Source of the DNA: a phage
Sequence record: OZ346221.1
Length of the DNA: 45,229 nucleotides
Direction: 5' to 3' (one strand)
Shown: positions 10,807 through 40,435 of the stretch, in pieces
Layout of the letters: each line of letters begins with the position of its first letter
How positions within the stretch are numbered: the stretch's first letter is position 1
Translations under genes and position numbers: made by a program
Notes under the pieces: generated by a model
Database searches by the model: none
What the model saw: only the letters and a program-made list of their open reading frames with translations
Told to the model about the DNA's origin: nothing

Positions 10807-10810
10807 TGCA

Positions 10811-10964
10811 GCGGGACAGATCGGGACGTCCCGTTTTGTCCCACCCCTGAAATGTGCATACCTATTCGAATTTATTGCATAAACTAAGCGGGACAGATCG
10901 GGACGTCCCGTTTTGTCCCACCCCTGAAATGTGCATACCTATTCGAATTTATTGCATAAACTAA
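10811..10964. repeat. 77-bp direct tandem repeat (2 units) containing the palindrome GGGACGTCCC
   Basis: Two adjacent near-identical units beginning GCGGGACAGATCGGGACGTCCCGTTTTGTCCC and ending TTATTGCATAAACTAA. Confidence 0.8.
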
Positions 10965-11121
10965 GCGGGACAAAAAGCGGGACAAACAAGGGGCGGGACA
11001 AAGCGGGACAGCACCCCGTCCCCACCAGTGCTGCCGCGGGGTTTAGCCGATCGGGACAGCGGGACAGCACCCCAGTCTTTCAGACTAGACGGGGGTCAGT
11101 GGCCCCCCTCGTCTGAGACTG
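10958..11121. repeat. iteron element copy A (six GCGGGACA-type direct repeats plus a GC-rich hairpin)
   Basis: CTAAGCGGGACAAAAAGCGGGACAAACAAGGGGCGGGACAAAGCGGGACAGCACC...CGGGACAGCGGGACAGCACCCCAG...GACGGGGGTCAGTGGCCCCCCTCGTC; flanks identical to the copy at 40113..40276. Confidence 0.75.
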
Positions 11122-11188
11122 AATAAGGATTGTTTTAAAATCGCTGATACAATGACAATCGGCAACTGCATAAAAAGGGGACTGCATA

Positions 11189-13831
11189 ATGGCAGATCAA
11201 GCGGCAGGCATCACGCTGAAGGCTGATGTTGCACAAATCAGAACGGCAAATACTGTGCTGGACTCCTTCGCACAGAAATCCGAGAACACAGAAAACAAGG
11301 TTAAGAAATTAAACGACACCCTCGGCAAATCCAAAAAGGTGACGAGTGACGCCGCGGGCGGAATGGAGAAGCTGGCGACTGAATCGCAGCGCGCCGCCGA
11401 TGGCATGACGAAACAGGAGCGACTTGCCAACAGGTTAGGCATGTCGACCAAAAACCTGGGCTTTGCCTCGCGTAACGCCGCATTCCAGTTACAGGATATC
11501 GCTGTAACGCTTGAGATGGGTATGCCGGTGCACCGCGTCATGCTTCAGCAGTTACCGCAGTTAACTGGGGCGTTCGGTGGATTGGGTAACACGCTGCGTT
11601 TTGTTGCTGGCTTCCTCGGTCCGGTAGGGACCGGCATTGCAGCACTAACGGCAACGTTAGGCGTAGGGGTGGCAATTACGTCCCGCGCGGAGAACCAGGT
11701 CGCCGCGCTTAACAAGACGCTGGCACTTTCCGGTAACATTTCCGGCCTGACGGCAAACCAGATCCTGGTGCTATCCGAGAACGCCGAGCGCATGGGCGGG
11801 TCGTTCCGCAAGACGCGTGACACAATCCAGGCGCTGGCGGCGGCGGGTGTGAAAGCGGGGGGTGACTTCGGCGCACTGGCGAAGGTAGTGAATGACTTCG
11901 CGAAGGTGTCCAGCCAGCCGATCGAGGATGTGGTCGCGGCGGTGGCGAAGCTGTCAACCGACCCCGTTGGCGGACTGCGTGCGCTGGCGGATAAGTATCA
12001 CGTCGTAAACGAAGCGCAGATCCAGCAGGTACAGTCGCTCGTTGATGCGGGTCGTGAGACAGACGCAGTTGCGTTGGCTAACAAAACAGCCGCTGCGTCG
12101 TTCACCAGCATGACCAATGAAATCAAGTCCAACATGGGTACGCTTGAGCGGTCGATGAACGTCGTCACATCGGCAGCCAAATCAATGTGGGACGCCATCC
12201 TGGATGTGGGCCGCGCGCAGTCCTCCAATGAATCCGAGATGAAAGCGCGTGAGTCATTGCAGCGACTAACCACGGCTTACTATGCCGAGATGAAAGCGGT
12301 AAACGCTGCCGGTGGGGTAATGACTGAAGCGCAGAAAGCGCGTATTAACATGCTTTACAGCGAACTGGTCGCCCAGGAGAAAGTAGTGGCGTCGCTCACC
12401 CTGCGCAACCGTGCGGAGCGGGACAACGCCAGCGCCGCGGACGAAGCAGCAAAGGCGAACGAGGAGGCCAACCGCACCGCCCGCGACCGCGCCGCGTTTG
12501 AGAAGGAGTACGCAACCAACGCGAAGAGGCGCGCCGACGAGATCGCCCGCCTCAATTTGCTGAATAAGCGCGGCGTGATTGACGAGAAAGAGCTTGCCGA
12601 GGCGGTGAAGCAGGTAAACGAGCGTTACAAAGACCCCGCCCCGAAGAAGGCCGCGGCTGTTCGCGTGGATGCCGGTATGAAAATGCTGGAAGTTGCACGG
12701 AGCGAACTGGCCCAGCTTCGAGAATCCGGCAAGCAGATCGAAGCCAACGCGTCTACGCAGACCCGCACGCAACGCGCTCAAGCGGCCCTAAACAAGCTGA
12801 TCGCGGATAATGAACAGTTAATCGCAGCAAGCAAAGAAAGAGCACTAACGGCAGCAGAAAAGCAGCAGATGGTCGAATTCGGACGCGTGAAGGAAGTACG
12901 CGAGCAGATCGTCGAAGAAGCCAAATTGCTGGACGCGAAAGAGAAGCAGGTCAAGGCGCACGCGCAGATCGACGCCTTCGTCAAGAACCAGAACGCCGAG
13001 CTAAAAGCCACCGCGGCGGGCTATGCGCTTTCCACTCGCGAAGCGGCTAACCTGCGCGAAGAATTGCAGCTAATTGACCGCCTTAAGCGGGTGGGCGCTA
13101 GCGATACCGATATTGATCTGGCGGTGTCTAAACTGCGCGAAGTGCAGGAAGCACAGACCGGTGCTAACGCCTCGCTATGGGATGGATTCAGCCGCGGGCT
13201 TAAGGATAGCGTGGATGAAATGGGTAACGGCTATACGCAGATGACGTCACTCACAAAATTCACGTTCGGCGCTATGCAGGACACGATGAACGAGTTTTTC
13301 GAGACTGGCAAGCTGAACGCAAAGGATATGGTTAAGTCCATCCTGAGCGAATTAATCAAGCTGGCTACATCGCAAGCATTCAAGTCCATCGTTAGCGCTT
13401 TCGGTGGCGACGGCGGCAAAAACGGATTGTTCGGCGCTATCTTCTCCGGCCTCACTAAGAATGCGGACGGCGGAGCGTACGCAGGAGGCAATCTCGCTGC
13501 CTATTCGGGGAAAGTGGTAAGCCAGCCTACCTTTTTCAGTTATGGCGTCCAGGCGTTCGCTAAAGGCGCTGGATTGATGGGTGAGGCCGGACCCGAGGCC
13601 ATCATGCCACTGAAGCGCGGGCCTGACGGTAAGCTGGGCGTTGCCGCTGCCGGTGTTGGGGGTGGGATGATTGTAACGACCAACGTGAACATGGGGACCG
13701 GTAAGACGGATGCCAGTGTGAGCGGGCCGGACCCACGCACCGCGCAGGCGTTCGGAAAGCAAATCACCGAGGCGGTCAAGGCCGAGATCGTGAAAGCGAC
13801 GAAACCGGGTGGTGTACTTTACAAACGATGA
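11189..13831 (+). CDS. tail tape measure protein
   Basis: 880 aa, long Ala/Gln/Glu-rich helical protein between the chaperone pair and the tail tip genes. Confidence 0.8.
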   Translation: MADQAAGITLKADVAQIRTANTVLDSFAQKSENTENKVKKLNDTLGKSKKVTSDAAGGMEKLATESQRAADGMTKQERLANRLGMSTKNLGFASRNAAFQLQDIAVTLEMGMPVHRVMLQQLPQLTGAFGGLGNTLRFVAGFLGPVGTGIAALTATLGVGVAITSRAENQVAALNKTLALSGNISGLTANQILVLSENAERMGGSFRKTRDTIQALAAAGVKAGGDFGALAKVVNDFAKVSSQPIEDVVAAVAKLSTDPVGGLRALADKYHVVNEAQIQQVQSLVDAGRETDAVALANKTAAASFTSMTNEIKSNMGTLERSMNVVTSAAKSMWDAILDVGRAQSSNESEMKARESLQRLTTAYYAEMKAVNAAGGVMTEAQKARINMLYSELVAQEKVVASLTLRNRAERDNASAADEAAKANEEANRTARDRAAFEKEYATNAKRRADEIARLNLLNKRGVIDEKELAEAVKQVNERYKDPAPKKAAAVRVDAGMKMLEVARSELAQLRESGKQIEANASTQTRTQRAQAALNKLIADNEQLIAASKERALTAAEKQQMVEFGRVKEVREQIVEEAKLLDAKEKQVKAHAQIDAFVKNQNAELKATAAGYALSTREAANLREELQLIDRLKRVGASDTDIDLAVSKLREVQEAQTGANASLWDGFSRGLKDSVDEMGNGYTQMTSLTKFTFGAMQDTMNEFFETGKLNAKDMVKSILSELIKLATSQAFKSIVSAFGGDGGKNGLFGAIFSGLTKNADGGAYAGGNLAAYSGKVVSQPTFFSYGVQAFAKGAGLMGEAGPEAIMPLKRGPDGKLGVAAAGVGGGMIVTTNVNMGTGKTDASVSGPDPRTAQAFGKQITEAVKAEIVKATKPGGVLYKR

Positions 13832-15994: not shown

Positions 15995-16602
15995 CCACAT
16001 TTAAATTATACGGCGTTTTAGGACGTCGATTCGGTAAAGTGCATAAGCTGGACTGCTTCACTCCGGGAGAGGGTATCACCGGCCTGTGCGTGAAGTTACC
16101 CGGCTTACAGGACTTTCTAATGTCGGCCCACCTGGACAATATGATGTTCAAGGTGCGCAAAGGCGACCACACGATGACCGGCTATGATGAGCTGGGCGAG
16201 TTCCACGGCAACCGCGTAGTTACCATCGCGCCGGTTATGACGGGCGCAAAAAGAGGGTTGGGACAATTGCTGGCGGGTGTCGCGATCGTTGTGGCGTCGT
16301 TCTATACGGGCGGATTTGCTACTGCCGCTTTCGGGGCTTCGGCTTCAACCGCTGCCGCTATCGGAACGGCGACGTTTTCGTTCGGGATGTCGATGGCGCT
16401 GGGTGGCGTTATGCAATTGCTGTCGCCACAACCGAAAGGATTGCAGACAAGGCAGGACGTGGATAACAAAGCGTCGTACGCGTTCGGCGGGCCAGTGAAC
16501 ACAACCGCGCAAGGCACGGCACTTGGTGTATTATGGGGCGAGCGTGAGATCGGCGGCGCTATTATTTCAGCCGGAATCGTAACCGAGGACTTGAACGAAT
16601 GA
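15985..16602 (+). CDS. tail assembly protein I-like
   Basis: 205 aa; Gly/Ala-rich hydrophobic C-terminal half; lies between K-like and J-like genes. Confidence 0.6.
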   Translation: MAMTTFKLYGVLGRRFGKVHKLDCFTPGEGITGLCVKLPGLQDFLMSAHLDNMMFKVRKGDHTMTGYDELGEFHGNRVVTIAPVMTGAKRGLGQLLAGVAIVVASFYTGGFATAAFGASASTAAAIGTATFSFGMSMALGGVMQLLSPQPKGLQTRQDVDNKASYAFGGPVNTTAQGTALGVLWGEREIGGAIISAGIVTEDLNE

Positions 16603-19600
16603 CGATTATCTACGACGTCACAGGGCATAAAGGCGGCGGCGGCAAACAGCACACCCCGCAGGAAACGCCGGATAGCCTGCATTCCCTGGCTAAAATCCGC
16701 ATCTTGCTCGCACTGGGAGAAGGTGAGTTCGAAAGTATTACCAGCGCCAGCGAATTGCGGCAGCGTGTATATCTGGACGGAACACCGATCCAGAACGCCG
16801 ATCTGTCTGAAAACTTCCCTGGCGCTCGTGTGGAGTTCCGCCCAGGAACACAGCACCAGGATGTGATCCACGGGTTTTCAGCGGTGGAAAGTGAGCAATC
16901 CGTAGGCGTAAAACTGGAAAACGGCACGCCGTGGGTGCGCCTGATTAACGACACCAGTCTTGACGCCGTGCGCATTCGAATCGGCATTCCGGCCCTGTAC
17001 ACAAACGAAGATAATGGCGACCTGGTGGGCGGGCGCATCGACTATAAGATCGTTGTGTATACGGATAACGCAGACCCGCGTGAGTTCAGATTCGCCGCCG
17101 TTGGTAAAACAATGTCGCTATATGAGCGCGACCACCGCATCGAATTACCGCCGAACGTGAATACTGGCTGGCGAGTGGAGGTGCACCGCATAACGGCAGA
17201 CTCCACATCGGCGAAAGTGGTTAATGATATCCGGGTGCAATCCATCACTGAGATTATCGACGCCCGCCTGCGATACCCGCTAACTGCGCTGTTGTTCGTG
17301 GAGTTCGACGCCAAAGCGTTCCAGAACATTCCGCGCGTGTCCATCAAGTGCAAAGGCCGCAAAGTGCTGGTCCCGAACAACTACGACCCGATTAATCATA
17401 CATATTCGGGCGACTGGGACGGCACGTTTAAACGCGCATGGACGGATAATCCTGCGTGGCACTGGTACGATATTTGTATTACTGAACGCTTCGGCCTAGG
17501 TCGCCGGATCAAACCGCAAATGCTGAACCGGTACGCGCTCTACCAGATTGCGCAGCGATGCGATCAGCTGGTTAGTGATGGCAACGGCGGGCGGGAAATC
17601 CGATTTAAGAATGATATGTACATTCAGTCGCAGACCGACGCCTGGACCGTGCTTAAGGATTTAGCCGCTATCTTTGCTGGTATGACCTGGTGGGGCAACC
17701 AGATGTTGAATATCGTAAGCGATCAGCCGGTCGCAGCGGTATCGCACACCATCACCAACGCCTCGGTAATTGATGGCCGATTCGACTACGCGTCCGGCAG
17801 CCAGAAAACTCGGTATTCCACATTCGCGGTAGCATACGGCAACCCGAAGAACCACTATGAAGACGCCATCGCAACGGGACAGCGTGTCGAACTGGTACGC
17901 CGCCATAAGATTAATCGTCTGGATATTACGGCGATCGGATGTACGCGTGAATCAGAAGCGCAACGACGTGGGCACTGGGCGCTAATCTCCAACCAGCTTG
18001 ACCAGCAAGTTAGCTTTAAGGTTGGCATGGAGGGACTTTTCTTTATTCCGGGTAGCGTAGTCGCGATCGCCGATACAAACATTTCTGGCGGCTTCGAGAC
18101 ACGCGGCGGTCGCCTGTTGTCAGATCCGGGCACTCGCACCGTGCTGAACACGGACTGCGAAATCACGTTCCGCCCTGGCGATAAGTTCCTTGTACGCACC
18201 GATAGCGGTAATGTGGAGACTCGCGAGATCGCCAGCGTCAACGGCAACAAGGTTACGCTAAAAACCGCACTGGACGCCGACCCTATTCCAGACCAGCCGT
18301 TTTGCGTTGATGGCAACGATATCCAGTTGCAGAAGTTCCGCATTACCGACCTGGAATATGACGACTCTACCAGCACTTTTTCAGTGCGCGGGATCGAGTA
18401 CAACGATAGCAAATATGATGCCGTCGATAATGGCGCTCGCCTTGACCCAGGCATCTTTACGCAAGTTCCTGACGGCGTAATGAAGGGGCCGGAGTCCGTG
18501 ACCATCACCCAGTCGCAGATTTCATCGCAAGGCCAGCTAATCACCAACGTGGATATTGTATTCCCGCCGGTGAAGGATGCCGTGGTGTATGAAATCCAGT
18601 GGCGACGTACCAGCTTACAGAATATGGAAATCCAGTGGGGTAACGACTGGGTGAACATTCCCCGCACGGCATCGAATGGCGCGCATATCCCAAACGTGTT
18701 TTCCGGTAACTATCAGGCACGCGTTCGCGCGATCGGTATGGGCGAGATTTCATCACCGTGGGTGTCGTCTGCCATCACGCCGATCGAAGGTCGTCTCGGC
18801 GGTCTTAACGCGCCTATCATTACGGCAGCAGTTTCCGGCCTTCACCAGATTTTGTGGAAGTGGAACCACAACAACGCCGCGACGGATATTTCGTACACCG
18901 AGCTTGAAGTGCGCAAGACCGGTGAAACGGAATGGAAGTTCTTAACCAACGTCCCATATCCTGGGTCGGAGTATGCGCAAACGTCGCTGGAGTTCGGCAT
19001 CTATCAGCAGTTGCGCGCCCGTGTAGCGGATAAAATCGGCAACCTGTCTGACTGGTCTGCCCCGTTTGAAGGGCAGGTGAGTGACAATGTTGACGAGTAT
19101 ATGAAGGGGCTTGATGACGAGTTCCTGACTTCCAAAGATGGTAAACGCTTCCAGGAAGCGATCGACACCATGCCGCAAGGCATTTATGAGGCGATGCTCA
19201 CCGACGCGCAGCAATTGTTCAACGCCCGCGCCGAGTACAAGGGCATTTATGCGGAAATCAAGGTGGCGTATAACGTGGCGGCGGACGCCCACAAGGCGGT
19301 AGCTCAACTGGAAACGTTGATCGGCACGCGACTTGACGATGCGGAAGCGGCGATCCACACGTTGCAGACAGCGCAAAGCACGCACGAGCAAGCCTTCGCC
19401 CAGTACCAGCAAACTGTTGCCGCTAAGTTTTCGGAACAGGAAGCTGCCATCCAGCAGGTACAAACAGCAACGGCAGACGTAGCGGGCGCGCTGGCGGAGT
19501 ACAAGACCCAGGTCGCGGCACAGTTCGGTCAGCAGTCCGCCGCTATCGAGCAGAAGATGACGTCCACGTTTAACCATGCCGGTGGCAACGCCACATACAG

Positions 19601-20018
19601 CCTTAAGGCGGGCGTGACGTATAACGGGACTTACTACGATGCCGGTATGCAGCTTTCAGTTGTTGCGGAAGGTGGCGCGGTTAAATCCCGCATCGCGTTC
19701 AAGGCGGACCAGTTCTACATCATGCACCCGTCTAATGGGTCGCTTTCGTCCGCGTTTATCGTTGACGGTGGTCAGGTGTACATCGACACCGCCCGCATCA
19801 AGAACGCGTCCATCAACTTCGCGCAGATCACAGACACGCTGCAATCGAATAACTACGACGGCAGCACGCGCGGATGGCGCTTAGGCAAAGACGGGACGTT
19901 TATCAACCTGGGTACTGGAAGCGGTGGTGGTACAAAGCAGACCAACACCAACTACAGCGTTAAAGACGCGAACGGTGTTTTACGCGTGCAAATTGGCGAG
20001 CTTACTGGTCGCTGGTAG
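16599..20018 (+). CDS. host specificity / central tail fibre protein (lambda J-like)
   Basis: 1139 aa, largest tail-tip ORF, follows the M/L/K/I-like genes, terminator downstream. Confidence 0.85.
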   Translation: MTIIYDVTGHKGGGGKQHTPQETPDSLHSLAKIRILLALGEGEFESITSASELRQRVYLDGTPIQNADLSENFPGARVEFRPGTQHQDVIHGFSAVESEQSVGVKLENGTPWVRLINDTSLDAVRIRIGIPALYTNEDNGDLVGGRIDYKIVVYTDNADPREFRFAAVGKTMSLYERDHRIELPPNVNTGWRVEVHRITADSTSAKVVNDIRVQSITEIIDARLRYPLTALLFVEFDAKAFQNIPRVSIKCKGRKVLVPNNYDPINHTYSGDWDGTFKRAWTDNPAWHWYDICITERFGLGRRIKPQMLNRYALYQIAQRCDQLVSDGNGGREIRFKNDMYIQSQTDAWTVLKDLAAIFAGMTWWGNQMLNIVSDQPVAAVSHTITNASVIDGRFDYASGSQKTRYSTFAVAYGNPKNHYEDAIATGQRVELVRRHKINRLDITAIGCTRESEAQRRGHWALISNQLDQQVSFKVGMEGLFFIPGSVVAIADTNISGGFETRGGRLLSDPGTRTVLNTDCEITFRPGDKFLVRTDSGNVETREIASVNGNKVTLKTALDADPIPDQPFCVDGNDIQLQKFRITDLEYDDSTSTFSVRGIEYNDSKYDAVDNGARLDPGIFTQVPDGVMKGPESVTITQSQISSQGQLITNVDIVFPPVKDAVVYEIQWRRTSLQNMEIQWGNDWVNIPRTASNGAHIPNVFSGNYQARVRAIGMGEISSPWVSSAITPIEGRLGGLNAPIITAAVSGLHQILWKWNHNNAATDISYTELEVRKTGETEWKFLTNVPYPGSEYAQTSLEFGIYQQLRARVADKIGNLSDWSAPFEGQVSDNVDEYMKGLDDEFLTSKDGKRFQEAIDTMPQGIYEAMLTDAQQLFNARAEYKGIYAEIKVAYNVAADAHKAVAQLETLIGTRLDDAEAAIHTLQTAQSTHEQAFAQYQQTVAAKFSEQEAAIQQVQTATADVAGALAEYKTQVAAQFGQQSAAIEQKMTSTFNHAGGNATYSLKAGVTYNGTYYDAGMQLSVVAEGGAVKSRIAFKADQFYIMHPSNGSLSSAFIVDGGQVYIDTARIKNASINFAQITDTLQSNNYDGSTRGWRLGKDGTFINLGTGSGGGTKQTNTNYSVKDANGVLRVQIGELTGRW

Positions 20019-20021
20019 TAT

Positions 20022-20041
20022 AGGGGCTTTGGCCCCTTTTT
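20022..20041 (+). terminator. intrinsic terminator after J-like gene
   Basis: GGGGC-TTTG-GCCCC hairpin followed by TTTTT (approximate coordinates). Confidence 0.6.
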
Positions 20042-20054
20042 AACGAGGTTATTT

Positions 20055-20357
20055 ATGGCATTCGGTATCGCAACGTGGGACGCGCAAGGACGCCCAAACA
20101 ACTACGGCATTAAACCGGTAAGCGTGATCGGAAGGATTCATCTTGCGGAAGGACAAAAATCAGGCGCGTGGTCGTTCCCAGTACCGGCGGGGATGAGGGT
20201 CGGATACGTGGTCGCACTGGATAAAGGCGCGGTCGGGCCAGGACGCAGAATAACCGCCAGCGGGAACACTATCACGGTTTCCGCGGCAAGTGCGGTAGGT
20301 GGCGGGGTTTACTCCGCATCTGAATGTGACGTTATTGTTTTTGTGGAGCGAGCTTAA
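20055..20357 (+). CDS. hypothetical protein downstream of J-like gene
   Basis: 100 aa ORF; ATGA overlap with the next gene. Confidence 0.45.
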   Translation: MAFGIATWDAQGRPNNYGIKPVSVIGRIHLAEGQKSGAWSFPVPAGMRVGYVVALDKGAVGPGRRITASGNTITVSAASAVGGGVYSASECDVIVFVERA

Positions 20358-21031
20358 TGGCTAATTACGGCGCGTTGATTGACTTACCAAACGGCAACCC
20401 GTTTATCACGCCAGAATCGACGCCGTTTTGTCTATTCCGCCGTGTGGTTGTTGGGTCTTCGGCTAACGGCACTGCGCAGTCGGCGGCTGCCGATATTAAT
20501 TTGGGCGGTGACTACCCTGCAATAGCGTTTGTGAAAACTACGCACACCGCCCAGCCGACCGTCGTAGGGTCTTCTCGCGTTGGTAATGTGGTGAAGGTGA
20601 GCGCCAGCAATCCATTCGGGCAAGGCTTCACTATGACGGCTTACATCTTTGCCATATTCCCACAGACCCTTCCGCGGTGGGGCTTCGCTATTTGGGGTAA
20701 GACGGGGAAGCTAGTGCTTACTAATGAGAGTCGCGTATTAAGCGATTTAGTTACCGTCGGATCTCCTGGCGCTAACGGGGGGATTAACATTGACCAGACG
20801 CTAAACGGCAGCTACGCCGTCGCACCGGGCATATTGGGGTCAACGCTGATCCGGTTTTTTGTGCAGGGCCAGCCGCAGGTAGTATCGGTAACGGCGTACA
20901 CGGGGGCCAGATTTGATGGGTCGCGAACGCGTATATCGGCAGCGTCGTCAGGGAACGCCACGGGGGATGTGGTGGGGTATACGAATAACGGCAACGCAAT
21001 CATGGCGATTAACACTGCCAACTACGACTGA
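20357..21031 (+). CDS. hypothetical protein, tail-fibre associated by position
   Basis: 224 aa, Gly/Ser/Thr/Asn-rich, between J-like and tail-fibre genes. Confidence 0.45.
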   Translation: MANYGALIDLPNGNPFITPESTPFCLFRRVVVGSSANGTAQSAAADINLGGDYPAIAFVKTTHTAQPTVVGSSRVGNVVKVSASNPFGQGFTMTAYIFAIFPQTLPRWGFAIWGKTGKLVLTNESRVLSDLVTVGSPGANGGINIDQTLNGSYAVAPGILGSTLIRFFVQGQPQVVSVTAYTGARFDGSRTRISAASSGNATGDVVGYTNNGNAIMAINTANYD

Positions 21032-21051: not shown

Positions 21052-21270
21052 TTATTCGCAGGTGGTGTTTTTGAAATGGTCTACCGACACGTACTGGAAG
21101 CTAAACGGATAACCCGCCCTTAGCATTTTATGCCCGGAGAAGTCTGCGACACCATACACAGGGACCGCATAATCAATGCCGCTATTCTGGTATGTGGCGT
21201 CGCAGACTTTAGCGGGCATGTTGGCACAACCGGACAAAAGAACCGCACAAATCATAATTAAAGTTTTCAT
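21052..21270 (-). CDS. small reverse-strand lipoprotein, candidate receptor-blocking superinfection-exclusion protein (Cor/Llp-like by context)
   Basis: 72 aa from internal ATG; signal peptide MKTLIMICAVLLSGC with lipobox LSGC; RBS AGGGGA; only - strand gene in the tail module, divergent from the tail-fibre gene. Confidence 0.55.
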   Translation of the reverse strand: MKTLIMICAVLLSGCANMPAKVCDATYQNSGIDYAVPVYGVADFSGHKMLRAGYPFSFQYVSVDHFKNTTCE

Positions 21271-21350
21271 GGTATCATCCCCTATATTTGGTTGAGTTTT
21301 AGTATTACACCGCTCAACCTGGATTGCAACCAATTTACGAGGATTTAGCT

Positions 21351-22919
21351 ATGGCAGCGGGTACGCTATCCGTAACGAACAATAGCAAGGCGGTAGTAGG
21401 GGTCGGCACAACGTTTACCGCGTTTAAAGCTGGCGACTTCTTAACGCTGGTGGTAGGGCAAGTTCCTTACACCGTGGCGATCGCATCAATCAAAAGTAAC
21501 ACGGCGCTTACGCTGGTGCTGCCGTTCGACGGCCCGACGGCAACCGGCCTAGCCTGGGACGGCATCAAACGTGACACCATGTCATTGACTACGATGGGCG
21601 TTACCGTCCAGGCACAGAAAGCATTTCGTTTGATGATCGCCGATGAAAACAACTGGCGTGCAATCTTCGGCGACGCTGAAGAAATCACCGTAACGCTGCC
21701 GAACGGGCAAGTCATGCAGGGTATGTCATGGGGCTATCTGTCGCAGTTGATGAAACAGATCGACCCAGTGGAAATGCGCGACCTGCAACAACAAGCCGCC
21801 GCATCGGAAGCAGCCGCGCAAGGATTTCGCAATGAGGCAGAAGGCTTCAAGACCGAGACGGCGGGTATTCGCGACGCCACCAATACCATCAAGACGCAGA
21901 CGAACCAGATCAAAACTGATACGCAGGCCATCAAGACGCAGACGAACCAGATCAAGACGGATACGCAGGCCATCAAGACGCAGACGAACCAGATCAAGAC
22001 GGATACGCAGGCCATCAAGACGCAGACGAACCAGATCAAGACTGACACCGGCGTTATTCGAGATCAGGCCAATACAGCGAAGAGGGACGCGCAAGCCGCC
22101 CGCGATGCCGCGCAGGGGTATCGGGACGAAGCCGAAGACTTCAAAAACGCGATCGACCCTACGCAATTCATGAAGAAGTCGCAGAACCTGGCAGACGTCG
22201 CAGATAAATCGGCGGCACGCGCTAATCTTGGCGTTGGTGATGATAGTATCGTTAAACACGCAACATTACGTCTGAACGGAGGCGAATCGCTAACCTTCAA
22301 TGATGTCGAAAGAAACGGTTTGATTATATCAAACGCGTCTTTCGGGATGGATAGCTGGGTCGGGCAGACGATGCATAAGTGGTACACGGATTGGACACGA
22401 TCTGGCTTGGTCAGGGGCGGCGATGCCCACTTATCGGACTACCGTGTCCACGTGTGGAAGGATGGTTATACGGAGGCTTTATTCCGCTTCCTACCGGACG
22501 GCAGGCTGATTAGTGGTAACAGCAGCAACCCTTCGGTTAACGAGTTCCAGAAAGCGGCGCTATCGGACCGCGACCTTAAAAAAGAAATCCAATACACTGA
22601 CGGCGAGGAAAGCTACAACCGCGTTCGTCAATGGCTTCCGGCAATGTTCAAGTATAAGGAGTCTGACGTACAGCGATACGGCCTTATCGCACAGGATCTG
22701 GCAAGGATTGACCCAGAATATGTGCACTTGCTGCCGGGTTATGCCATTTATGAGGATATCAAGGGGGTGGACGAGGAAGGCAACGAAGTTGTAGTCGACC
22801 GAAAGGAAATCGGGTATACGGACGATGTGCTGTCACTAGATAGTAACGTGCTGTTGATGGATCTGTGTGCCGCCTTCGTTCACCTGTTGCGGAAAGTGGA
22901 AAAGCTGGAAGGTAAATAA
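21351..22919 (+). CDS. tail fibre protein with C-terminal S74-type intramolecular chaperone domain
   Basis: 522 aa from internal ATG with GAGGA RBS; C-terminal SDRDLKKEI...YGLIAQDL signature; 14-aa tandem repeats AIKTQTNQIKTDTQ in the shaft. Confidence 0.75.
   Translation: MAAGTLSVTNNSKAVVGVGTTFTAFKAGDFLTLVVGQVPYTVAIASIKSNTALTLVLPFDGPTATGLAWDGIKRDTMSLTTMGVTVQAQKAFRLMIADENNWRAIFGDAEEITVTLPNGQVMQGMSWGYLSQLMKQIDPVEMRDLQQQAAASEAAAQGFRNEAEGFKTETAGIRDATNTIKTQTNQIKTDTQAIKTQTNQIKTDTQAIKTQTNQIKTDTQAIKTQTNQIKTDTGVIRDQANTAKRDAQAARDAAQGYRDEAEDFKNAIDPTQFMKKSQNLADVADKSAARANLGVGDDSIVKHATLRLNGGESLTFNDVERNGLIISNASFGMDSWVGQTMHKWYTDWTRSGLVRGGDAHLSDYRVHVWKDGYTEALFRFLPDGRLISGNSSNPSVNEFQKAALSDRDLKKEIQYTDGEESYNRVRQWLPAMFKYKESDVQRYGLIAQDLARIDPEYVHLLPGYAIYEDIKGVDEEGNEVVVDRKEIGYTDDVLSLDSNVLLMDLCAAFVHLLRKVEKLEGK
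21885..22049 (+). repeat. 42-bp in-frame tandem repeat (about 3.9 units) inside the tail-fibre gene
   Basis: GCCATCAAGACGCAGACGAACCAGATCAAGACGGATACGCAG repeated; units 2 and 3 identical, units 1 and 4 slightly different. Confidence 0.8.
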
Positions 22920-22925
22920 GGAGAA

Positions 22926-22948
22926 GGGGCTGCGTGGCCCCCTTTTTA
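22926..22948. terminator. bidirectional intrinsic terminator between tail-fibre gene and the end of the leftward operon
   Basis: GGGGC-TGCGT-GGCCCC hairpin followed by CTTTTT (approximate coordinates). Confidence 0.6.
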
Positions 22949-23521
22949 GTTTGAGTTTTCCCAGTCCATTTTACGCCGTACCAACGGGCTTTCGTAATAT
23001 TCCTTTCCTTCCACTTCCACCAGGGGCCAGTCGTTCACAATCACGTATGGCTCCGCAATATCCTCAATAACGCCGCTGGCGCTATGCTGCCCGAACGACA
23101 CTCCCACCAGAATAACACCGGCAACTCGACGAGTGAGATACTCACGAGCGCAACGCGCCTCCACCAACCCCCGACGGATGCCGCTGGTGGCCTTAACCTC
23201 GTAGGTCCAGACGGCATCAATCATATGTTCGCGGAAGTCGGGACCGGATTTTACCTTGCGCTTGCCGACCATGATAATATCGCCGCGGTCGATAGTGTTA
23301 GCGCTAAACAGGCCGGTACGCATTAGCAAACCTTGCGGGATACAGCTACGCCCGCCCGCCTGCCCTTCGAGGTACATGCCTGCAAACATTTCGCCCAGCA
23401 CACCGACGAGTCTGCTTTGCTTGCACGCGTCAGACTTGTATCGCCACTGTTCAAACTCGATGCTTGCAATCATTGCCGCCAAGTGGAATTGTTTACCGGT
23501 TATTTCATATTCGCCGTACAT
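22946..23521 (-). CDS. hypothetical protein, possible PD-(D/E)xK-like nuclease fold
   Basis: 191 aa; D...EVK arrangement (DIIMVG...DAVWTYEVKAT) compatible with a PD-(D/E)xK core; weak call. Confidence 0.35.
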   Translation of the reverse strand: MYGEYEITGKQFHLAAMIASIEFEQWRYKSDACKQSRLVGVLGEMFAGMYLEGQAGGRSCIPQGLLMRTGLFSANTIDRGDIIMVGKRKVKSGPDFREHMIDAVWTYEVKATSGIRRGLVEARCAREYLTRRVAGVILVGVSFGQHSASGVIEDIAEPYVIVNDWPLVEVEGKEYYESPLVRRKMDWENSN

Positions 23522-32058: not shown

Positions 32059-32787
32059 TTAACGGCGGCGACGTTTGCGTGGTGCTTCGTCTTCGTCGTC
32101 TTCGTCCTCATCTTCGTCATCGCGGGACTTGCGGCGTTTGCGAGGTTTTTCATCTTCCTCATCGTCGTCATCGCGGCGCTTGGATTTCTTGGACTTGCGC
32201 GGTGCTTCGTCTTCGTCGTCGTTGTCCAGGTCTTCATCGGAGCAAGAAGACCCGCCACCGCCGAAGGCTTCACCGTCATCACGGAAGCGTAAACCCAGCA
32301 AGCCAGCACCGAGTCCCTTGCCGTTGGTGTTGTTCCACGCCCAGATATCAAGGGACACGTTGCAATAACAACCGGAGTAGATCTCCTGGCCTTCGATCTC
32401 GTCGCCTTCTACGGTCAGACCCTGTTCGGTCTGCTTCTCGCCGAGTGACGTTTGAATGTTTGGCTGTTTGAACGATTTAGCGTTGATGTACAACATGCCT
32501 TCGAATTCTTCGGATACTTCGTCGCGCTCGTCACCGTCACGAACTGCGCATTCCTTCGAATCCTGGGCGTAGTGGCGGTCCATCCACTTATCGGCATTCT
32601 TCTCGGATTTCAGCTTGTCGGTGAGCACTGCGCGCGCTGCCGCTTCCACTTTGTCCACCTGCGGATCTTCTTTATCCAGAAGAATCACGGCACGGTATGC
32701 CGGTTTTTGTCCATCCTGTTTAGGGGTGTCACGTTCCCAAATTTTCAGGAAGCATACGCGCACATTTTTCAGGTTGACTTTAGCCAT
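32059..32787 (-). CDS. T7 gp2.5-like single-stranded DNA-binding protein with mixed-charge C-terminal tail
   Basis: 242 aa from internal ATG (MAKVNLKNVRVCF...) with GAGGAA RBS; YCNVSLDIWAWNNTNGKGLGAGLLGLRF...FGGGG parallels the gp2.5 C-terminal core; tail alternates Asp/Glu and Lys/Arg clusters. Confidence 0.7.
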   Translation of the reverse strand: MAKVNLKNVRVCFLKIWERDTPKQDGQKPAYRAVILLDKEDPQVDKVEAAARAVLTDKLKSEKNADKWMDRHYAQDSKECAVRDGDERDEVSEEFEGMLYINAKSFKQPNIQTSLGEKQTEQGLTVEGDEIEGQEIYSGCYCNVSLDIWAWNNTNGKGLGAGLLGLRFRDDGEAFGGGGSSCSDEDLDNDDEDEAPRKSKKSKRRDDDDEEDEKPRKRRKSRDDEDEDEDDEDEAPRKRRRR

Positions 32788-35020: not shown

Positions 35021-35527
35021 TTAATCTTCCAGTTCGAAATAGGTTTCGACGATTTCTTTTAACTCTGTGTGGAAGTCTTCGACGTCGTCATCTTCCAGCT
35101 TGGCGATTGATTTGATCTCGAACGACTCCAGCAGGTCGTCGAATTCGTCGTTCGCATCGTCGTCATCACCACCGGCGATAATCGCGGCATACTGTTTGAT
35201 TTCGTCGCGCATCTCCGCCAGCGGATCAGCATCTTTCTTACCTTTGCCGTTCGCCGGTGCTTTTTTAGCCTTAGCCGGTTTTTCGTCTTCGGCGTCTTCG
35301 TCGTCATCTTCTACGACTTCTTTTTTGGCCTTACCTTTCGCCGGTGCTTTTTTAGCTTTAGCCGGTTTTTCGTCTTCGGCGGCATCGTCGTCATCTTCTT
35401 TTTTGGCCTTAGACGGCTTCTTGTCTTCCTGCTTACCAACGGCAGCGCCAACAGTTTCATAATGCTTTGCGATGGTTTCCAGTGCTACTACGCCGCGAGT
35501 GATCAGGTTTACGATTTGCTCAAACAT
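35021..35527 (-). CDS. acidic low-complexity protein, first gene of the leftward early operon
   Basis: 168 aa from internal ATG (MFEQIVNL...) with GGAGAT RBS; two KPAKAKKAPA-type units and a strongly acidic C-terminal third. Confidence 0.5.
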   Translation of the reverse strand: MFEQIVNLITRGVVALETIAKHYETVGAAVGKQEDKKPSKAKKEDDDDAAEDEKPAKAKKAPAKGKAKKEVVEDDDEDAEDEKPAKAKKAPANGKGKKDADPLAEMRDEIKQYAAIIAGGDDDDANDEFDDLLESFEIKSIAKLEDDDVEDFHTELKEIVETYFELED

Positions 35528-36268: not shown

Positions 36269-38533
36269 ATGAGCTTAATTAAATTCGCTGTAACAAGACC
36301 CGCTAAAAAAGGCGAAAAAGCCAGGGCGGAAAACTTCCAGATGACAACTGATGAATTTTTCGAATTTATCAATGATGCGAAAGAAATATCATCAGTGCAT
36401 ATCAACAAGACCGAGGATAAAGCCGAGTATGCGCGCCGCAAGCGCAAGGCCGATGGCATCGTGGCATATACCAGTGACGGCCTACGCCGTAAGACCAGCG
36501 CGGTGGACCGCTCGATCCTGTTCTTTGATATCGACCGTACCGACACTCGCACCTTGCGCCGCTGCCGTAAGGCTTTCATCGATGCGGGGCTGGAGCACGT
36601 ATTCCATACAACAACCGGCGACCGCCACCCGCTGAAAGGCGGCACGCGTTGCGCACGTTTCCTTGTGCTCACAGACAAGCCCGTACCGGCGGAAGACCTG
36701 GGCCGCGTCCAGTACGCGCTGTTAGACCAACTGGGCCTGTCTGATGTGGACTTCGACGATTGCACCAAAGACACAAACCGCCTGATGTACCTACCACACC
36801 AGCAGTCTGTCATTAAGTGCCACTACGGAAAGCGCGCCAGTGTGCGTCGTCTGCTTCGCCGGGCTGACAGGCTGGGAGTGGAGAAAGAGGAAGTACGCCG
36901 CGAGCTTACCCAGGGCGACGACGCAGTGGCTGACGGCATTCTGGACTGGTGCTTCCAAGCAGGATTCGAGGAGTTATCCTCCGGTCGCGGTTATGAAGTG
37001 CCGTGCCCGAACGAACATCTGCACAGCGGCGAAGGGTCGACGGCTATTATAGTCAAGGATGGCGAGATCCGTTTCAAGTGTATGCACACCGGCAACGAGT
37101 GTTGCTCTGAGCTGAACAGACACCAGCACCTGGCGCTACGTCTTATCGGGATACCGGACCACCTGAACGTCGAGCCGCACAACATGTCACGTAAGCAAAT
37201 CGCCGCCATCCTCCCAGGGCTGGACGACGAGGAAGTCGAATCCTTATATGAACATATTGTTGATGCGGTTGGCGACGGCGAAGAATACGGCGTGTGCACC
37301 GATGCGGATCTGGATAACGAGCCGGTTGCGCTGTTCAGTAAGCACGACCCGATTATCGAGGGGTTGATTAACTTTAAATCGACCTGGTACATGGCGGGTG
37401 AGTCGAATATCGGTAAGTCTTTCTACGTGCTGGGCCAGATGGGCGCGGTTGCCGCGGGTATTCCGTTTGGTGGCGCGAAGGTCGTCCAGTCTCATTGCTT
37501 CTATTTCGACGCGGAAGGTGGCGAAGCCTCCAACCAGCGTAAAGAAGCATTGCAGATTAAATATGAGCACGACCTGGACAAGCTGCACATTATCGATCTG
37601 CAGTCACGCGGCTGGGATATCACCAGCAAATCGGGCTTGCGCGAAGTTATCAGCTTTATCAACCGCACCGCTAACGGCGAACCGGTTGGCCTGGTGGCGT
37701 TCGACTCACTAAACCAGACTGTTGCGTTGCGGTCCGCCGAGGCTAAACCGTTCGACGAGAACAACGCCAGCGATATGGGTGAAGTGGTCAAAGCGCTGAA
37801 GGCCATCGCGGAAAATACAGGTGGCAGTGCGGGCGTCATCCACCACCCGGCTAAAGGTGCAAACGGCAGCAGAACGCCACGCGGGTCCGGCGCGCTGCAT
37901 GGTGCTGTCGATTCTGCGTTCTTCCTGGAACAGCCGGACGACAACCAGCCCGGACAATTGAACCTGTATCACGAAAAGTCACGTAACGGCATCAAGCAAG
38001 CGCCGCGCGGCTTCGTCCTGCTCAAGTGCAAGGTGAAGGTGGATCTCCGCAAGTCAGAAGCGTTCGAGGCGCACCAGTCCACCAGCACCGGGCCAGACTT
38101 CGGCGACGTGGTTGCCGGATGGGACGTCAAGCCGATTGCCTCCACGCCACGCGACGAGACTCTCTACCTCGTACCGGTTGCCCTGGCACCGTTCGCTATT
38201 GAACAGGCGAAGGCGGCGGGCAAGGCCGCGGTTAAGGAAGAGAACACCGCCGGACCGCGCAACGAAAAAGAGAAAGTGCTTTATGCGGCACTGGAAAAAC
38301 TGATGGAAGATAACCCGTACCATACTGGATTCAGTAAATCGGCAATTGTCCGCCAGGCGGGACTCGCAAAAGGTGGCACTTCGACGAAGGCAATCGACGA
38401 TATGGTGGAGCGCGGGGTAATAGGTTTTTATACAGATCCGCACACCGGGGCCATCTATGGGTCTTCTAATTTGGTCATCAAATCGGATATCCCTATCACG
38501 CTTTCCGCGACCGATGACGATTTAAAAGATTAA
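36269..38533 (+). CDS. primase-helicase (zinc-binding primase-type N-terminal region, RecA-like ATPase, C-terminal winged-helix-like domain)
   Basis: 754 aa; Cys/His cluster CPNEHLHSGEG...CMHTGNECC; Walker A MAGESNIGKS; VAFDSLNQ; C-terminal GFSKSAIVRQAGL...AIDDMVERGVIGF. Confidence 0.75.
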   Translation: MSLIKFAVTRPAKKGEKARAENFQMTTDEFFEFINDAKEISSVHINKTEDKAEYARRKRKADGIVAYTSDGLRRKTSAVDRSILFFDIDRTDTRTLRRCRKAFIDAGLEHVFHTTTGDRHPLKGGTRCARFLVLTDKPVPAEDLGRVQYALLDQLGLSDVDFDDCTKDTNRLMYLPHQQSVIKCHYGKRASVRRLLRRADRLGVEKEEVRRELTQGDDAVADGILDWCFQAGFEELSSGRGYEVPCPNEHLHSGEGSTAIIVKDGEIRFKCMHTGNECCSELNRHQHLALRLIGIPDHLNVEPHNMSRKQIAAILPGLDDEEVESLYEHIVDAVGDGEEYGVCTDADLDNEPVALFSKHDPIIEGLINFKSTWYMAGESNIGKSFYVLGQMGAVAAGIPFGGAKVVQSHCFYFDAEGGEASNQRKEALQIKYEHDLDKLHIIDLQSRGWDITSKSGLREVISFINRTANGEPVGLVAFDSLNQTVALRSAEAKPFDENNASDMGEVVKALKAIAENTGGSAGVIHHPAKGANGSRTPRGSGALHGAVDSAFFLEQPDDNQPGQLNLYHEKSRNGIKQAPRGFVLLKCKVKVDLRKSEAFEAHQSTSTGPDFGDVVAGWDVKPIASTPRDETLYLVPVALAPFAIEQAKAAGKAAVKEENTAGPRNEKEKVLYAALEKLMEDNPYHTGFSKSAIVRQAGLAKGGTSTKAIDDMVERGVIGFYTDPHTGAIYGSSNLVIKSDIPITLSATDDDLKD

Positions 38534-38708
38534 ATTCTGCGCGCATTGGTTGCCGATATGGTAATTCCCATATCGGTGAATGATTAAATTTTGCGCGCAT
38601 TGGTTGCCATTTTGAGTGTTTTTACCTGGTCGTATTGGTTGCCGTGTAGTGTAAATATAGTGAATAGTTATGCAATAAAACTGCATAAAGTAAGCGGACA
38701 GAAAGCAC
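37229..38708 (+). repeat. tandem duplication unit, copy 1 (3' half of primase-helicase gene plus downstream non-coding DNA)
   Basis: Near-identical to 38709..40188 with scattered substitutions; unit about 1480 bp; junction next to GTAAGCGGACAGAAAGC (approximate coordinates). Confidence 0.8.
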
Positions 38709-40188: not shown

Positions 40189-40276
40189 ACGCGGCCTGGC
40201 GGGGAGCGGGACAGCGGGACAGCACCCCAGTCTTTCAGACTAGACGGGGGTCAGTGGCCCCCCTCGTCTGAGACTG
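40113..40276. repeat. iteron element copy B (candidate replication origin)
   Basis: Six GCGGGACA-type repeats plus the same GC-rich hairpin as copy A; directly downstream of the primase-helicase region; followed by an AT-rich stretch with TGCGGNTTG repeats. Confidence 0.75.
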
Positions 40277-40435
40277 CATAAAATCCTGGATTGCAAAATA
40301 CACGGCAGCATGTTGCGGATTGCGGTCGTCGCGGAACTAGGCAACCAATGCGGGTTGTATTATGTTGAGTGAAAAATGCGGTTTGCAGTCTCAGCAGATA
40401 GCGATCAACTTTTTCATGCGCGTGATTAATATTGG

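What the first reader, a model, noticed from the sequence alone, without database searches (positions are those of the whole stretch)
21885..22049. In-frame 42-bp tandem repeats in the tail-fibre shaft upstream of an S74 chaperone domain
About 3.9 copies of a 42-bp unit encode AIKTQTNQIKTDTQ repeats; two units are identical at the nucleotide level. The array is recombination-prone and could change fibre length by copy-number variation. The C-terminus carries the SDRDLKKEI...YGLIAQDL signature of self-cleaving intramolecular chaperones.
Basis: seen in the sequence. Interest (0 to 1): 0.45.

Follow-up and report, generated by a model that had tools for sequence, protein, structure and literature searches.

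The report
Heptad repeat expansion in phage tail fibre
A 42-base unit repeated four times lengthens the helical rod of the side tail fibre of an E. coli phage by one unit compared with its closest relatives; it is real, and an ordinary case of how phage fibres vary in length.

Summary
Window 21885-22052 holds four in-frame 42-bp units; units 2 and 3 are 42/42 identical. They lie in the lateral tail fibre gene (21351-22919, 522 aa) of a Dhillonvirus-like E. coli siphophage.

The real period is a heptad. Each unit encodes two heptads (IKTQTNQ IKTDTQA) of a continuous alpha-helical coiled coil, not a beta-structured shaft. The register is very regular: a = Thr/Ala, d = Ile/Phe/Tyr/Ala, e = Lys/Arg.

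In 103 homologues this rod segment measures 32, 74, 95, 102, 109, 116 (81 of 103), 123 or 130 aa. Every difference is a multiple of 7. The window (130 aa) is the longest. It differs from its two closest relatives by one clean 42-bp indel with 95-100% identical flanks.

The C-terminus matches Peptidase_S74 above Pfam's cut-off. Ser405 and Lys410 are invariant and have the spacing of the T5 pb1 catalytic dyad. This predicts cleavage at Leu404|Ser405, giving 43.9 kDa and 13.7 kDa products.

The coiled coil plus S74 architecture is already catalogued for E. coli phage fibres, so interest is low. Within-population variation, actual cleavage and any phenotypic effect of rod length remain untested.

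The parts
21351..22919 (+). Lateral tail fibre gene (522 aa plus stop). A GAGGA ribosome-binding box lies at 21339-21343.
   Evidence: ORF list. PHROG 1980, E 1e-123. Homologues all start at MAAGT. Upstream sequence read.
21351..21764 (+). N-terminal domain (aa 1-138), conserved across the genus; presumed virion-attachment part.
   Evidence: The profile matches the N-terminus of trimeric phage depolymerases 7VZ3/7VYV/7LZJ (E about 1e-24), Distal tail protein gp20 (23GD_B) and the F2-pyocin side fibre. Many phage records match only the first about 800-900 nt of the gene.
21762..22151 (+). Continuous heptad-repeat alpha-helical coiled-coil rod (aa 138-267, 130 aa, about 19 nm).
   Evidence: Heptad layout. 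Register a=T/A, d=I/F/A/Y, e=K/R. AlphaFold2 models a single helix 139-267, with 10-residue block means of pLDDT 90-95 over residues 171-230.
21885..22052 (+). The 42-bp tandem array: four units, equal to eight IKTxTxx heptads.
21927..22010 (+). Two nucleotide-identical 42-bp units, the most recent duplication.
   Evidence: 42/42 identity.
22182..22238 (+). Single QNLADVADKSAARANLGVG motif at the junction between the rod and the distal module.
   Evidence: It matches a motif repeated 4-6 times in short tail fibre gp92 (9ZD7). Relatives carry 0-3 extra 30-aa copies here; the window carries none.
22239..22562 (+). Distal tip domain (aa 297-404), the presumed receptor-binding part. It is the most divergent stretch compared with close relatives.
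   Evidence: Nucleotide identity to L017/L018 drops to 65-76% here and returns to 96-99% in the S74 part. The AlphaFold2 model shows beta strands at low confidence.
22563..22916 (+). Peptidase_S74 / intramolecular chaperone domain (aa 405-522, 118 aa). Ser405 codon is 22563-22565 and Lys410 codon is 22578-22580. The predicted scissile bond is Leu404|Ser405.
   Evidence: Pfam PF13884, 38 bits against a cut-off of 22. 8HQZ_d E 7e-11 and 7DC3 E 0.003. S405, D406 and K410 invariant. Foldseek top hit 4UW8. Coordinates.
22924..22943 (.). GC-rich hairpin followed by T-runs on both strands, between the convergent fibre gene and the gene at 22946-23521(-). It resembles a bidirectional terminator.
   Evidence: consensus scan only.

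Best explanation
The array encodes eight consecutive heptads of the alpha-helical coiled-coil rod of the phage's lateral tail fibre; the rod is presumed to be trimeric. The rod joins the conserved N-terminal domain to a small distal tip. Because neighbouring units are almost identical in DNA, replication slippage or unequal recombination can add or remove whole units. This phage has gained one 42-bp unit over its nearest relatives: 14 residues, two heptads, about 2.1 nm of rod. That makes its rod the longest seen in the family. Only whole heptads are gained or lost, so the coiled-coil register, and with it the packing of the distal domain, is kept. The fibre is predicted to fold as a trimer nucleated by its C-terminal S74 intramolecular chaperone. 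The chaperone would then cut itself off at Leu404|Ser405 using the Ser405/Lys410 dyad, leaving a 404-residue mature fibre protein and exposing the tip. Shown here: the repeat, its heptad nature, the helix prediction, length differences between relatives in whole heptads, and the S74 match with a conserved dyad. Inferred: the trimeric state, the slippage mechanism, the cleavage, and any effect of length on adsorption.
For: Repeat. Heptad register over 18 heptads in the window and about 95 homologues: position a is T/A in 1278 of 1287 cells, d is I/F/A/Y/L/W, e is K/R. AlphaFold2 gives one helix 139-267, with block-mean pLDDT 90-95 across the repeat. The window differs from L018 (P0001 locus) and L017 (phage SM_S22) by exactly one gap of 42 nt, with flanks 95-100% identical. 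Segment lengths in 103 homologues are 32, 74, 95, 102, 109, 116 (81 of 103), 123 and 130 aa, all congruent modulo 7; seven independent non-modal classes would all fall on multiples of 7 by chance with probability about 1e-6. Independent recent duplications exist in relatives: SM_S22 has a 41/42 pair, and L012 has a 41/42 pair in a different heptad array. Phage mckay lacks 14 heptads, with the junction between the two similar motifs AQGFRNE-AEGFK and AQGYRDE-AEDFK. S74. In T5 pb1 the scissile Ser1264 and Lys1269 have the same i/i+5 spacing, and the chaperone is 133 residues (PMC4690869). A trimeric state is suggested because the matching depolymerase structures have three chains, and because T7 gp17 and weak Lpp/SadA coiled-coil matches are trimeric.
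Against: No reads or population data are available, so variation within this phage's population is not shown, and the copy number in the assembly cannot be checked independently. 79% of homologues share one length (116 aa), so most lineages keep the length fixed. The array is therefore not hypervariable in the sense of a contingency locus. The AlphaFold2 model is a monomer with mean pLDDT 57.8; the tip and the S74 part are poorly modelled. The oligomeric state and the cleavage are inferred from homology only. No phenotype can be tied to length.
Confidence: 0.85

Rival explanations
1. Assembly artefact: the number of units (four) is a mis-count produced by a short-read assembler collapsing or expanding a 168-bp repeat, and the true phage has the family's modal three units.
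For: The near-perfect part of the array is about 116-160 bp long, close to typical short-read length. No other contig in IMG/VR or the JGI metagenomes carries the exact unit, or at least 2.5 amino-acid-identical units. The four-unit state is therefore seen only once.
Against: The array is exactly in frame. Its end units differ from the middle ones at 2-4 positions, which anchors reads. Expansions and contractions of the same kind are seen in many independently sequenced relatives.
Confidence: 0.07
2. Neutral length polymorphism: heptad gain and loss is a mutational by-product of repetitive DNA with no effect on adsorption or host range, tolerated as long as the register is kept.
For: Viable isolates span 32 to 130 aa in this segment. 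One is phage mckay, isolated on K-12 MG1655, which lacks 14 heptads. The BASEL paper states, for T5-like phages, that lateral fibres are dispensable on K-12 strains without O-antigen, and proposes the same use of lateral fibres for small siphoviruses (PMC8594841).
Against: 81 of 103 homologues keep exactly 116 aa despite repetitive DNA and very different distal modules. This suggests stabilising selection on length. It does not contradict the structural explanation; only the claim of adaptive significance is at stake.
Confidence: 0.5
3. The repeat forms a beta-structured fibre shaft (triple beta-helix or beta-spiral, as in adenovirus fibre or T4 gp12), or a repeated ligand-binding motif, rather than a coiled coil.
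For: S74 chaperones were first described downstream of triple-beta-helix stalks (PMC4690869; PMC12143355). The repeat is rich in Thr, Gln and Asn.
Against: The period is strictly 7 residues, with small residues at a, large hydrophobic residues at d, and K/R at e. The model gives a helix at block-mean pLDDT 90-95. The profile matches the coiled-coil part of T7 gp17 and, weakly, trimeric coiled coils. All indels are multiples of 7.
Confidence: 0.03

Closest known systems
Lateral tail fibres of Dhillonvirus phages (SM_S22, SSL-2009a, JL1, mckay, BASEL isolates Oekolampad and GeorgBuechner)
   Same: Orthologous gene in the same genome position. It has the same N-terminal domain and heptad rod, and many carry the same S74 end. 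The BASEL paper describes this locus as conserved only at the far 5' end and highly variable beyond it, and proposes O-antigen glycans as the primary receptor (PMC8594841).
   Different: The window has one more 42-bp unit than any of the 103 homologues examined, and its units are the most homogeneous at DNA level. It lacks the 30-aa GSVATEN... module that many relatives with the same tip carry.
[quoted passage not shown]
   Same: It is a side fibre of a siphovirus ending in an S74 domain. Its Ser/Lys pair is spaced i/i+5 (Ser1264/Lys1269 in pb1; Ser405/Lys410 here), and the C-terminal fragment is a little over 100 residues (133 against 118).
   Different: pb1 has 1396 residues, a different shaft and a 'bullet' receptor domain. 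Cleavage is demonstrated for pb1 and only predicted here. Sequence identity in the fold match is 13%.
Phage T7 fibre gp17
   Same: An N-terminal tail adaptor is followed by a trimeric alpha-helical coiled-coil rod. The profile of this family matches that stretch of gp17 (E 0.0013).
   Different: gp17 has no S74 domain and folds without a chaperone (PMC4690869). The match is weak.
Tail fibre class TC7 of the RBPseg structure atlas of BASEL phages
   Same: [quoted passage not shown]
   Different: I did not verify that a Dhillonvirus fibre is a listed member of TC7. The atlas does not discuss differences in heptad number.
Phage depolymerase tailspikes (PDB 7LZJ, 7VZ3, 7VYV; entries named 'Depolymerase')
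   Same: The N-terminal domain plus the beginning of the Ala/Ser/Glu-rich coiled coil is homologous (E about 1e-24 over profile positions 3-196). The entries have three chains.
   Different: The distal part is a large depolymerase, not a small tip plus S74. There is no IKTxTxQ array.

Membership tests
Peptidase_S74 / intramolecular chaperone auto-processing domain | Sequence match to the family model above its curated threshold | tested here: met
   PF13884, E 2e-9, 38 bits against a cut-off of 22, profile positions 1-57 of 58. The family profile also hits 8HQZ_d 'L-shaped tail fiber' (E 7e-11) and the MyRF ICA domain 7DC3 (E 0.003).
Peptidase_S74 / intramolecular chaperone auto-processing domain | Catalytic Ser at the domain start with Lys five residues downstream (Ser1264/Lys1269 in T5 pb1) | tested here: met
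   S405-D-R-D-L-K410. S405, D406 and K410 are invariant in 42 homologues. Reference spacing from PMC4690869.
Peptidase_S74 / intramolecular chaperone auto-processing domain | Position at the extreme C-terminus, with a released fragment a little over 100 residues | tested here: met
   Residues 405-522 make 118 aa and 13.7 kDa. The pb1 fragment is 133 aa.
Peptidase_S74 / intramolecular chaperone auto-processing domain | Fold: central trimeric helix flanked by an alpha/beta part with a beta-hairpin 'tentacle' | tested here: inconclusive
   The monomer AlphaFold2 model has pLDDT 53-77 over residues 441-522, with strands and then a long C-terminal helix 498-521. Foldseek's only hit below E 0.9 is 4UW8_A (E 1.5e-3, probability 0.98), but TM-scores are only 0.15-0.19.
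Peptidase_S74 / intramolecular chaperone auto-processing domain | Autoproteolytic release after trimer folding | not testable with these tools
   This needs SDS-PAGE or mass spectrometry of virions or recombinant protein, with an S405A control.
Trimeric alpha-helical coiled coil | Unbroken heptad periodicity with core positions a and d occupied by small or hydrophobic residues | tested here: met
   The window has 18 heptads without a break. Position a is T/A and d is I/F/Y/A, in the window and across the family.
Trimeric alpha-helical coiled coil | Helical secondary structure | tested here: met
   A single helix 139-267, with 10-residue block means of pLDDT 90-95 over residues 171-230.
Trimeric alpha-helical coiled coil | Three-stranded oligomeric state | not testable with these tools
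   It is inferred from the three-chain homologous structures and from the trimeric nature of S74 chaperones. No multimer prediction was available.
Dhillonvirus lateral tail fibre (PHROG 1980) | Full-length match to the family, and the same position after the gpJ / small RBP genes / Cor module | tested here: met
   phrog_1980 E 1e-123 over residues 10-529. Neighbours are gpJ (PF24801, PF09327), phrog_557, phrog_425 and Cor-like phrog_1119. The layout is the same in SM_S22. The whole window is 90-93% identical to Dhillonvirus genomes.
Contingency locus (repeat-mediated high-frequency switching) | Copy-number heterogeneity within one population or lineage at high frequency | not testable with these tools
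   Only between-genome differences could be examined. 79% of homologues share one length, which argues against very high instability.

The most novel reading that the evidence does not exclude
Heptad number in the lateral-fibre rod is an adaptive ruler: gain or loss of 21/42-bp units by slippage tunes how far the distal tip reaches relative to the central tail tip. This would match the thickness of the host's O-antigen or capsule layer. The unusually homogeneous four-unit array in this phage would then be a recent adaptive expansion, and such arrays could serve as a simple handle for engineering fibre length.
Probability: 0.15. Interest if true: 0.45.

Novelty: new member of a known kind. Interest (0 to 1): 0.2.

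Why it matters
It gives a clean, well-anchored natural series of one fibre family, from 32 to 130 residues of rod and always in whole heptads. The same N-terminal domain is combined with interchangeable distal modules. This is useful background for annotating and engineering receptor-binding fibres of therapeutic E. coli phages: the rod tolerates heptad insertions and deletions, and the end of the rod is the natural junction for swapping modules. It does not reveal a new mechanism. Coiled-coil rods, S74 self-cleaving chaperones and repeat-driven length changes in phage fibres are all established.

Tried and rejected
(1) I searched for the exact 42-bp unit in IMG/VR and the JGI metagenomes and found no match. 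A degenerate pattern for at least 2.5 amino-acid-identical units also found nothing in either collection. No sister genomes with other copy numbers of this same homogenised array were found.

(2) A single-sequence phmmer search against PDB did not detect the S74 domain. A family profile was needed.

(3) The AlphaFold2 monomer model was poor outside the helix (mean pLDDT 57.8). The fold search therefore gave only one usable hit.

(4) I considered a beta-structured shaft and rejected it on the heptad register and the helix prediction.

(5) The ORFs in other frames and on the minus strand across the repeat were set aside as products of the repeat.

(6) The TTG start at 21324 was rejected in favour of ATG 21351. 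All homologues start there, a GAGGA box precedes it, and the convergent Cor-like gene occupies 21052-21333.

(7) Two literature searches for a described heptad or tandem-repeat length polymorphism in phage fibre coiled coils found none. That library is incomplete, so this is not proof of absence.

Full report
**What the window is.** The first 25 kb of the window is 90-93% identical to genomes of E. coli siphophages of the genus Dhillonvirus. The closest is phage SM_S22, with 92.8% identity over 100% of the query. The finding lies in the last gene of the tail module. Upstream are a gpJ-type central fibre (16599-20018; Pfam FNIII-A_GpJ, Phage-tail_3, Phage_Tail_Tip), two small genes (phrog_557, phrog_425) and a Cor-like gene on the opposite strand at 21052-21333 (phrog_1119). 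SM_S22 has the same layout.

**Check of the observation.**
- Tandem Repeats Finder reports a 42-bp period with 3.7 copies, 98% matches, no indels and score 300 at 21886-22042. A nested 21-bp period has 7.4 copies and 65% matches.
- In frame, the units are 21885-21926, 21927-21968, 21969-22010 and 22011-22052. They encode T/AIKTQTNQIKTDTQ/G.
- The two middle units are 42/42 identical. The outer units differ from them at 2-4 positions, mostly synonymous.
- The gene starts at ATG 21351 (MAAGTLSV...), not at the TTG of the mechanical ORF list. All homologues start there, and a GAGGA box lies 7 nt upstream. The protein has 522 residues.

**What the repeat encodes.** Laid out in sevens, the protein shows an unbroken heptad pattern from about residue 138 to 267...AQGFRNE AEGFKTE TAGIRDA TNTIKTQ TNQIKTD TQAIKTQ ... 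TGVIRDQ ANTAKRD AQAARDA AQGYRDE AEDFKNA.
- With the first residue of these groups as position a, occupancy in the window and across about 95 homologues is as follows. Position a is Thr or Ala (1278 of 1287 cells), d is Ile/Phe/Ala/Tyr/Leu/Trp, e is Lys or Arg, and g is Asp/Glu/Gln/Ala. This is the signature of an alpha-helical coiled coil with possible e-g salt bridges.
- AlphaFold2, run as a monomer with a 42-sequence alignment, models residues 139-267 as one helix. The 10-residue block means of pLDDT are 90-95 over residues 171-230, which covers the repeat. The rest of the protein is modelled poorly, with mean pLDDT 57.8.
- A profile of the family matches the coiled-coil part of the T7 fibre gp17 (E 0.0013). 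It also matches, weakly, trimeric coiled coils: a SadA fragment and Lpp, at E 0.09-0.8.
- The 42-bp unit is therefore two heptads of a helical rod, not a beta-structured shaft. At 0.148 nm per residue the rod is about 19 nm long and one unit adds about 2.1 nm. This rests on standard coiled-coil geometry, not on a measurement.

**Relatives.** A search of the large protein collection found 456 homologues, of which 120 were listed. I measured the distance between two sequence anchors that flank the rod (DPVEM...LQQQ and the I/V-D/N-P/A turn after it).
- In 95 proteins the values are 32 (1), 74 (1), 95 (2), 102 (6), 109 (10), 116 (73), 123 (1) and 130 (1, the window).
- The eight proteins that my end anchor missed all have 16 heptads, which is the 116 class.
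- Every difference is a multiple of 7. For seven independent non-modal classes that has a chance probability of about 1e-6. The anchors are sequence motifs, so the measurement is not biased towards multiples of 7.
- The unit of change is the heptad: classes 95, 109 and 123 differ from the mode by an odd number of heptads.
- The window has the longest rod in the set.

**Comparison at DNA level.**
- The window differs from its two closest relatives by exactly one clean 42-nt gap inside the array. These are the metagenomic contig carrying P0001 (L018) and phage SM_S22 (L017). The 100-column alignment blocks on either side of the block holding the gap are 89-95% identical, the aligned bases within that block are 97-100% identical, and the printed stretch immediately 5' of the gap is nearly identical.
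- In most relatives the units have diverged, with best 42-nt pair identities of 26-37 out of 42.
- SM_S22 has its own recent duplicate (41/42). L012 has a 41/42 pair in a different heptad array, of the ANTAKTG AENARNQ type.
- Phage mckay, isolated on K-12 MG1655, lacks 14 heptads. Its junction lies between the two similar motifs that open and close the rod, AQGFRNE-AEGFK and AQGYRDE-AEDFK.
- Duplications and deletions in this rod are therefore recurrent and independent. Even so, 79% of homologues keep 116 residues.

**The homogenised array is unique so far.** The exact 42-bp unit does not occur in IMG/VR or the JGI metagenome contigs, and neither does any stretch encoding at least 2.5 identical units.

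**Position in the mosaic.** Many phage records match only the first 794-908 nt of the gene, at 84-93% identity. Homology thus ends at the end of the rod and the NLADVADKSAARANLG motif.
- Against the closest relatives, identity falls to 65-76% in the distal tip (residues 297-404) and returns to 96-99% in the S74 part.
- This agrees with the BASEL description of the Dhillonvirus lateral fibre locus as conserved only at its far 5' end. That paper proposes that these fibres recognise O-antigen glycans (PMC8594841).
- Relatives with the same tip also carry 0-3 copies of a 30-residue GSVATENTVPIEKGG...ARSNLGL module just after the rod; the window has none. Related single motifs are repeated in the solved short tail fibre gp92, 9ZD7.
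- Overall fibre length in this family is therefore set by two separate repeat modules.

**The C-terminal domain.**
- Pfam Peptidase_S74 matches residues 405-458 (counted from the ATG) at 38 bits against a cut-off of 22.
- The family profile matches the C-terminus of an 'L-shaped tail fiber' chain (8HQZ_d, E 7e-11) and the MyRF ICA domain (7DC3, E 0.003).
- Ser405, Asp406 and Lys410 are invariant in 42 homologues.
- In T5 pb1 the scissile bond is Thr1263-Ser1264. Ser1264 is activated by Lys1269, an S1264A mutant is not cleaved, the released fragment has 133 residues, and the chaperone masks the receptor-binding end until it is cleaved (PMC4690869). The i/i+5 spacing is the same here.
- Despite the poor model, the only fold match below E 0.9 in the PDB is 4UW8, T5 pb1 with its chaperone (E 1.5e-3, probability 0.98, TM-scores 0.15-0.19). 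I count the fold as inconclusive and the sequence features as met.
- The prediction is cleavage at Leu404|Ser405, giving a 43.9-kDa mature protein and a 13.7-kDa fragment from a 57.6-kDa precursor.

**Mechanism.**
- Shown: the array is part of a heptad-periodic helical rod, relatives differ by whole heptads, and this phage has one extra, very recent unit.
- Inferred: the rod is three-stranded. The basis is that the homologous N-terminal domains occur in three-chain structures and that S74 chaperones act on trimers.
- Inferred: the changes arise by slippage or unequal recombination between near-identical units.
- Inferred: the S74 domain nucleates folding and then removes itself.
- Not known: whether the 2-nm extension changes adsorption. 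The strong mode at 116 residues suggests that length is under some constraint. Viable phages with much shorter rods show that it is not essential on laboratory hosts.

**Comparison with what is known.** The architecture of an N-terminal anchor, a coiled coil and a C-terminal S74 domain is already listed as a class of E. coli phage fibres in the RBPseg atlas (PMC12143355). S74 chaperones on siphovirus side fibres are known from T5. In two literature searches I found no description of the heptad-number polymorphism in Dhillonvirus fibres, but the library is incomplete. I file the finding as a new member of a known kind. It is correct, cleanly documented, and of low surprise.

**Limits.**
- Only 120 of the 456 homologues were listed and examined.
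- No read-level data were available.
- No multimer structure prediction was available.
- Cleavage and receptor binding are predictions.

Noticed in passing
window 10810-11126 and 40087-40281: An intergenic region upstream of the 880-aa ORF at 11189-13831 has a perfect 77-bp direct repeat (10810-10886 = 10887-10963). A cluster of GCGGGACA boxes and a GC-rich hairpin (GACGGGGGTCAGTGGCCCCCCTCGTC) follow it. A 195-nt copy of the box cluster plus hairpin, 87% identical, lies 29 kb away. GCGGGACA occurs 15 times in the window, always on the + strand, with 13 copies in these two clusters and 2.3 expected by chance. It looks like a repeated regulator-binding or promoter region.
   Followed up: partly
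window 37227-37526 vs 38707-39006; 38579-38697 vs 40005-40123: There are two further dispersed direct repeats: 300 nt at 97% identity, spaced 1480 nt apart, and 119 nt at 94% identity, spaced 1426 nt apart. They lie in the region next to the second GCGGGACA cluster (D2 and D5).
   Followed up: no
window 32075-32238 and 35232-35401 (coding sense probably on the - strand): Degenerate repeats rich in TCGTC/TCTTC (families D3 and D7) would encode acidic Asp/Glu-rich stretches on the minus strand. One 81-nt unit is duplicated at 89% identity.
   Followed up: no
relatives P0017 (phage JL1), P0022, P0024, P0002-P0010; window 22182-22238: A second copy-number-variable module lies just after the rod in relatives: 0-3 copies of a 30-aa GSVATENTVPIEKGGTAATTAAAARSNLGL unit. 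This explains the 508/538/568/598-aa length series. The window has none, only the single NLADVADKSAARANLG motif.
   Followed up: partly
L018 1-2643 compared with window 16599-21031: The closest relative of the fibre gene (the contig carrying P0001) has a longer gpJ (1271 aa). That gpJ is followed directly by the small minus-strand gene and the fibre, without the two small genes (phrog_557, phrog_425) that follow the 1139-aa gpJ in the window. The central receptor-binding module and the lateral fibre are thus exchanged independently.
   Followed up: no
L012 (IMG/VR UViG 2597490041), rod region: One relative has replaced the IKTxTxQ heptads with a different repeated array (ANTAKTG AENARNQ ANTARDQ ...). 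It has the same register and its own near-identical duplicate (41/42 nt at a 105-nt offset).
   Followed up: partly
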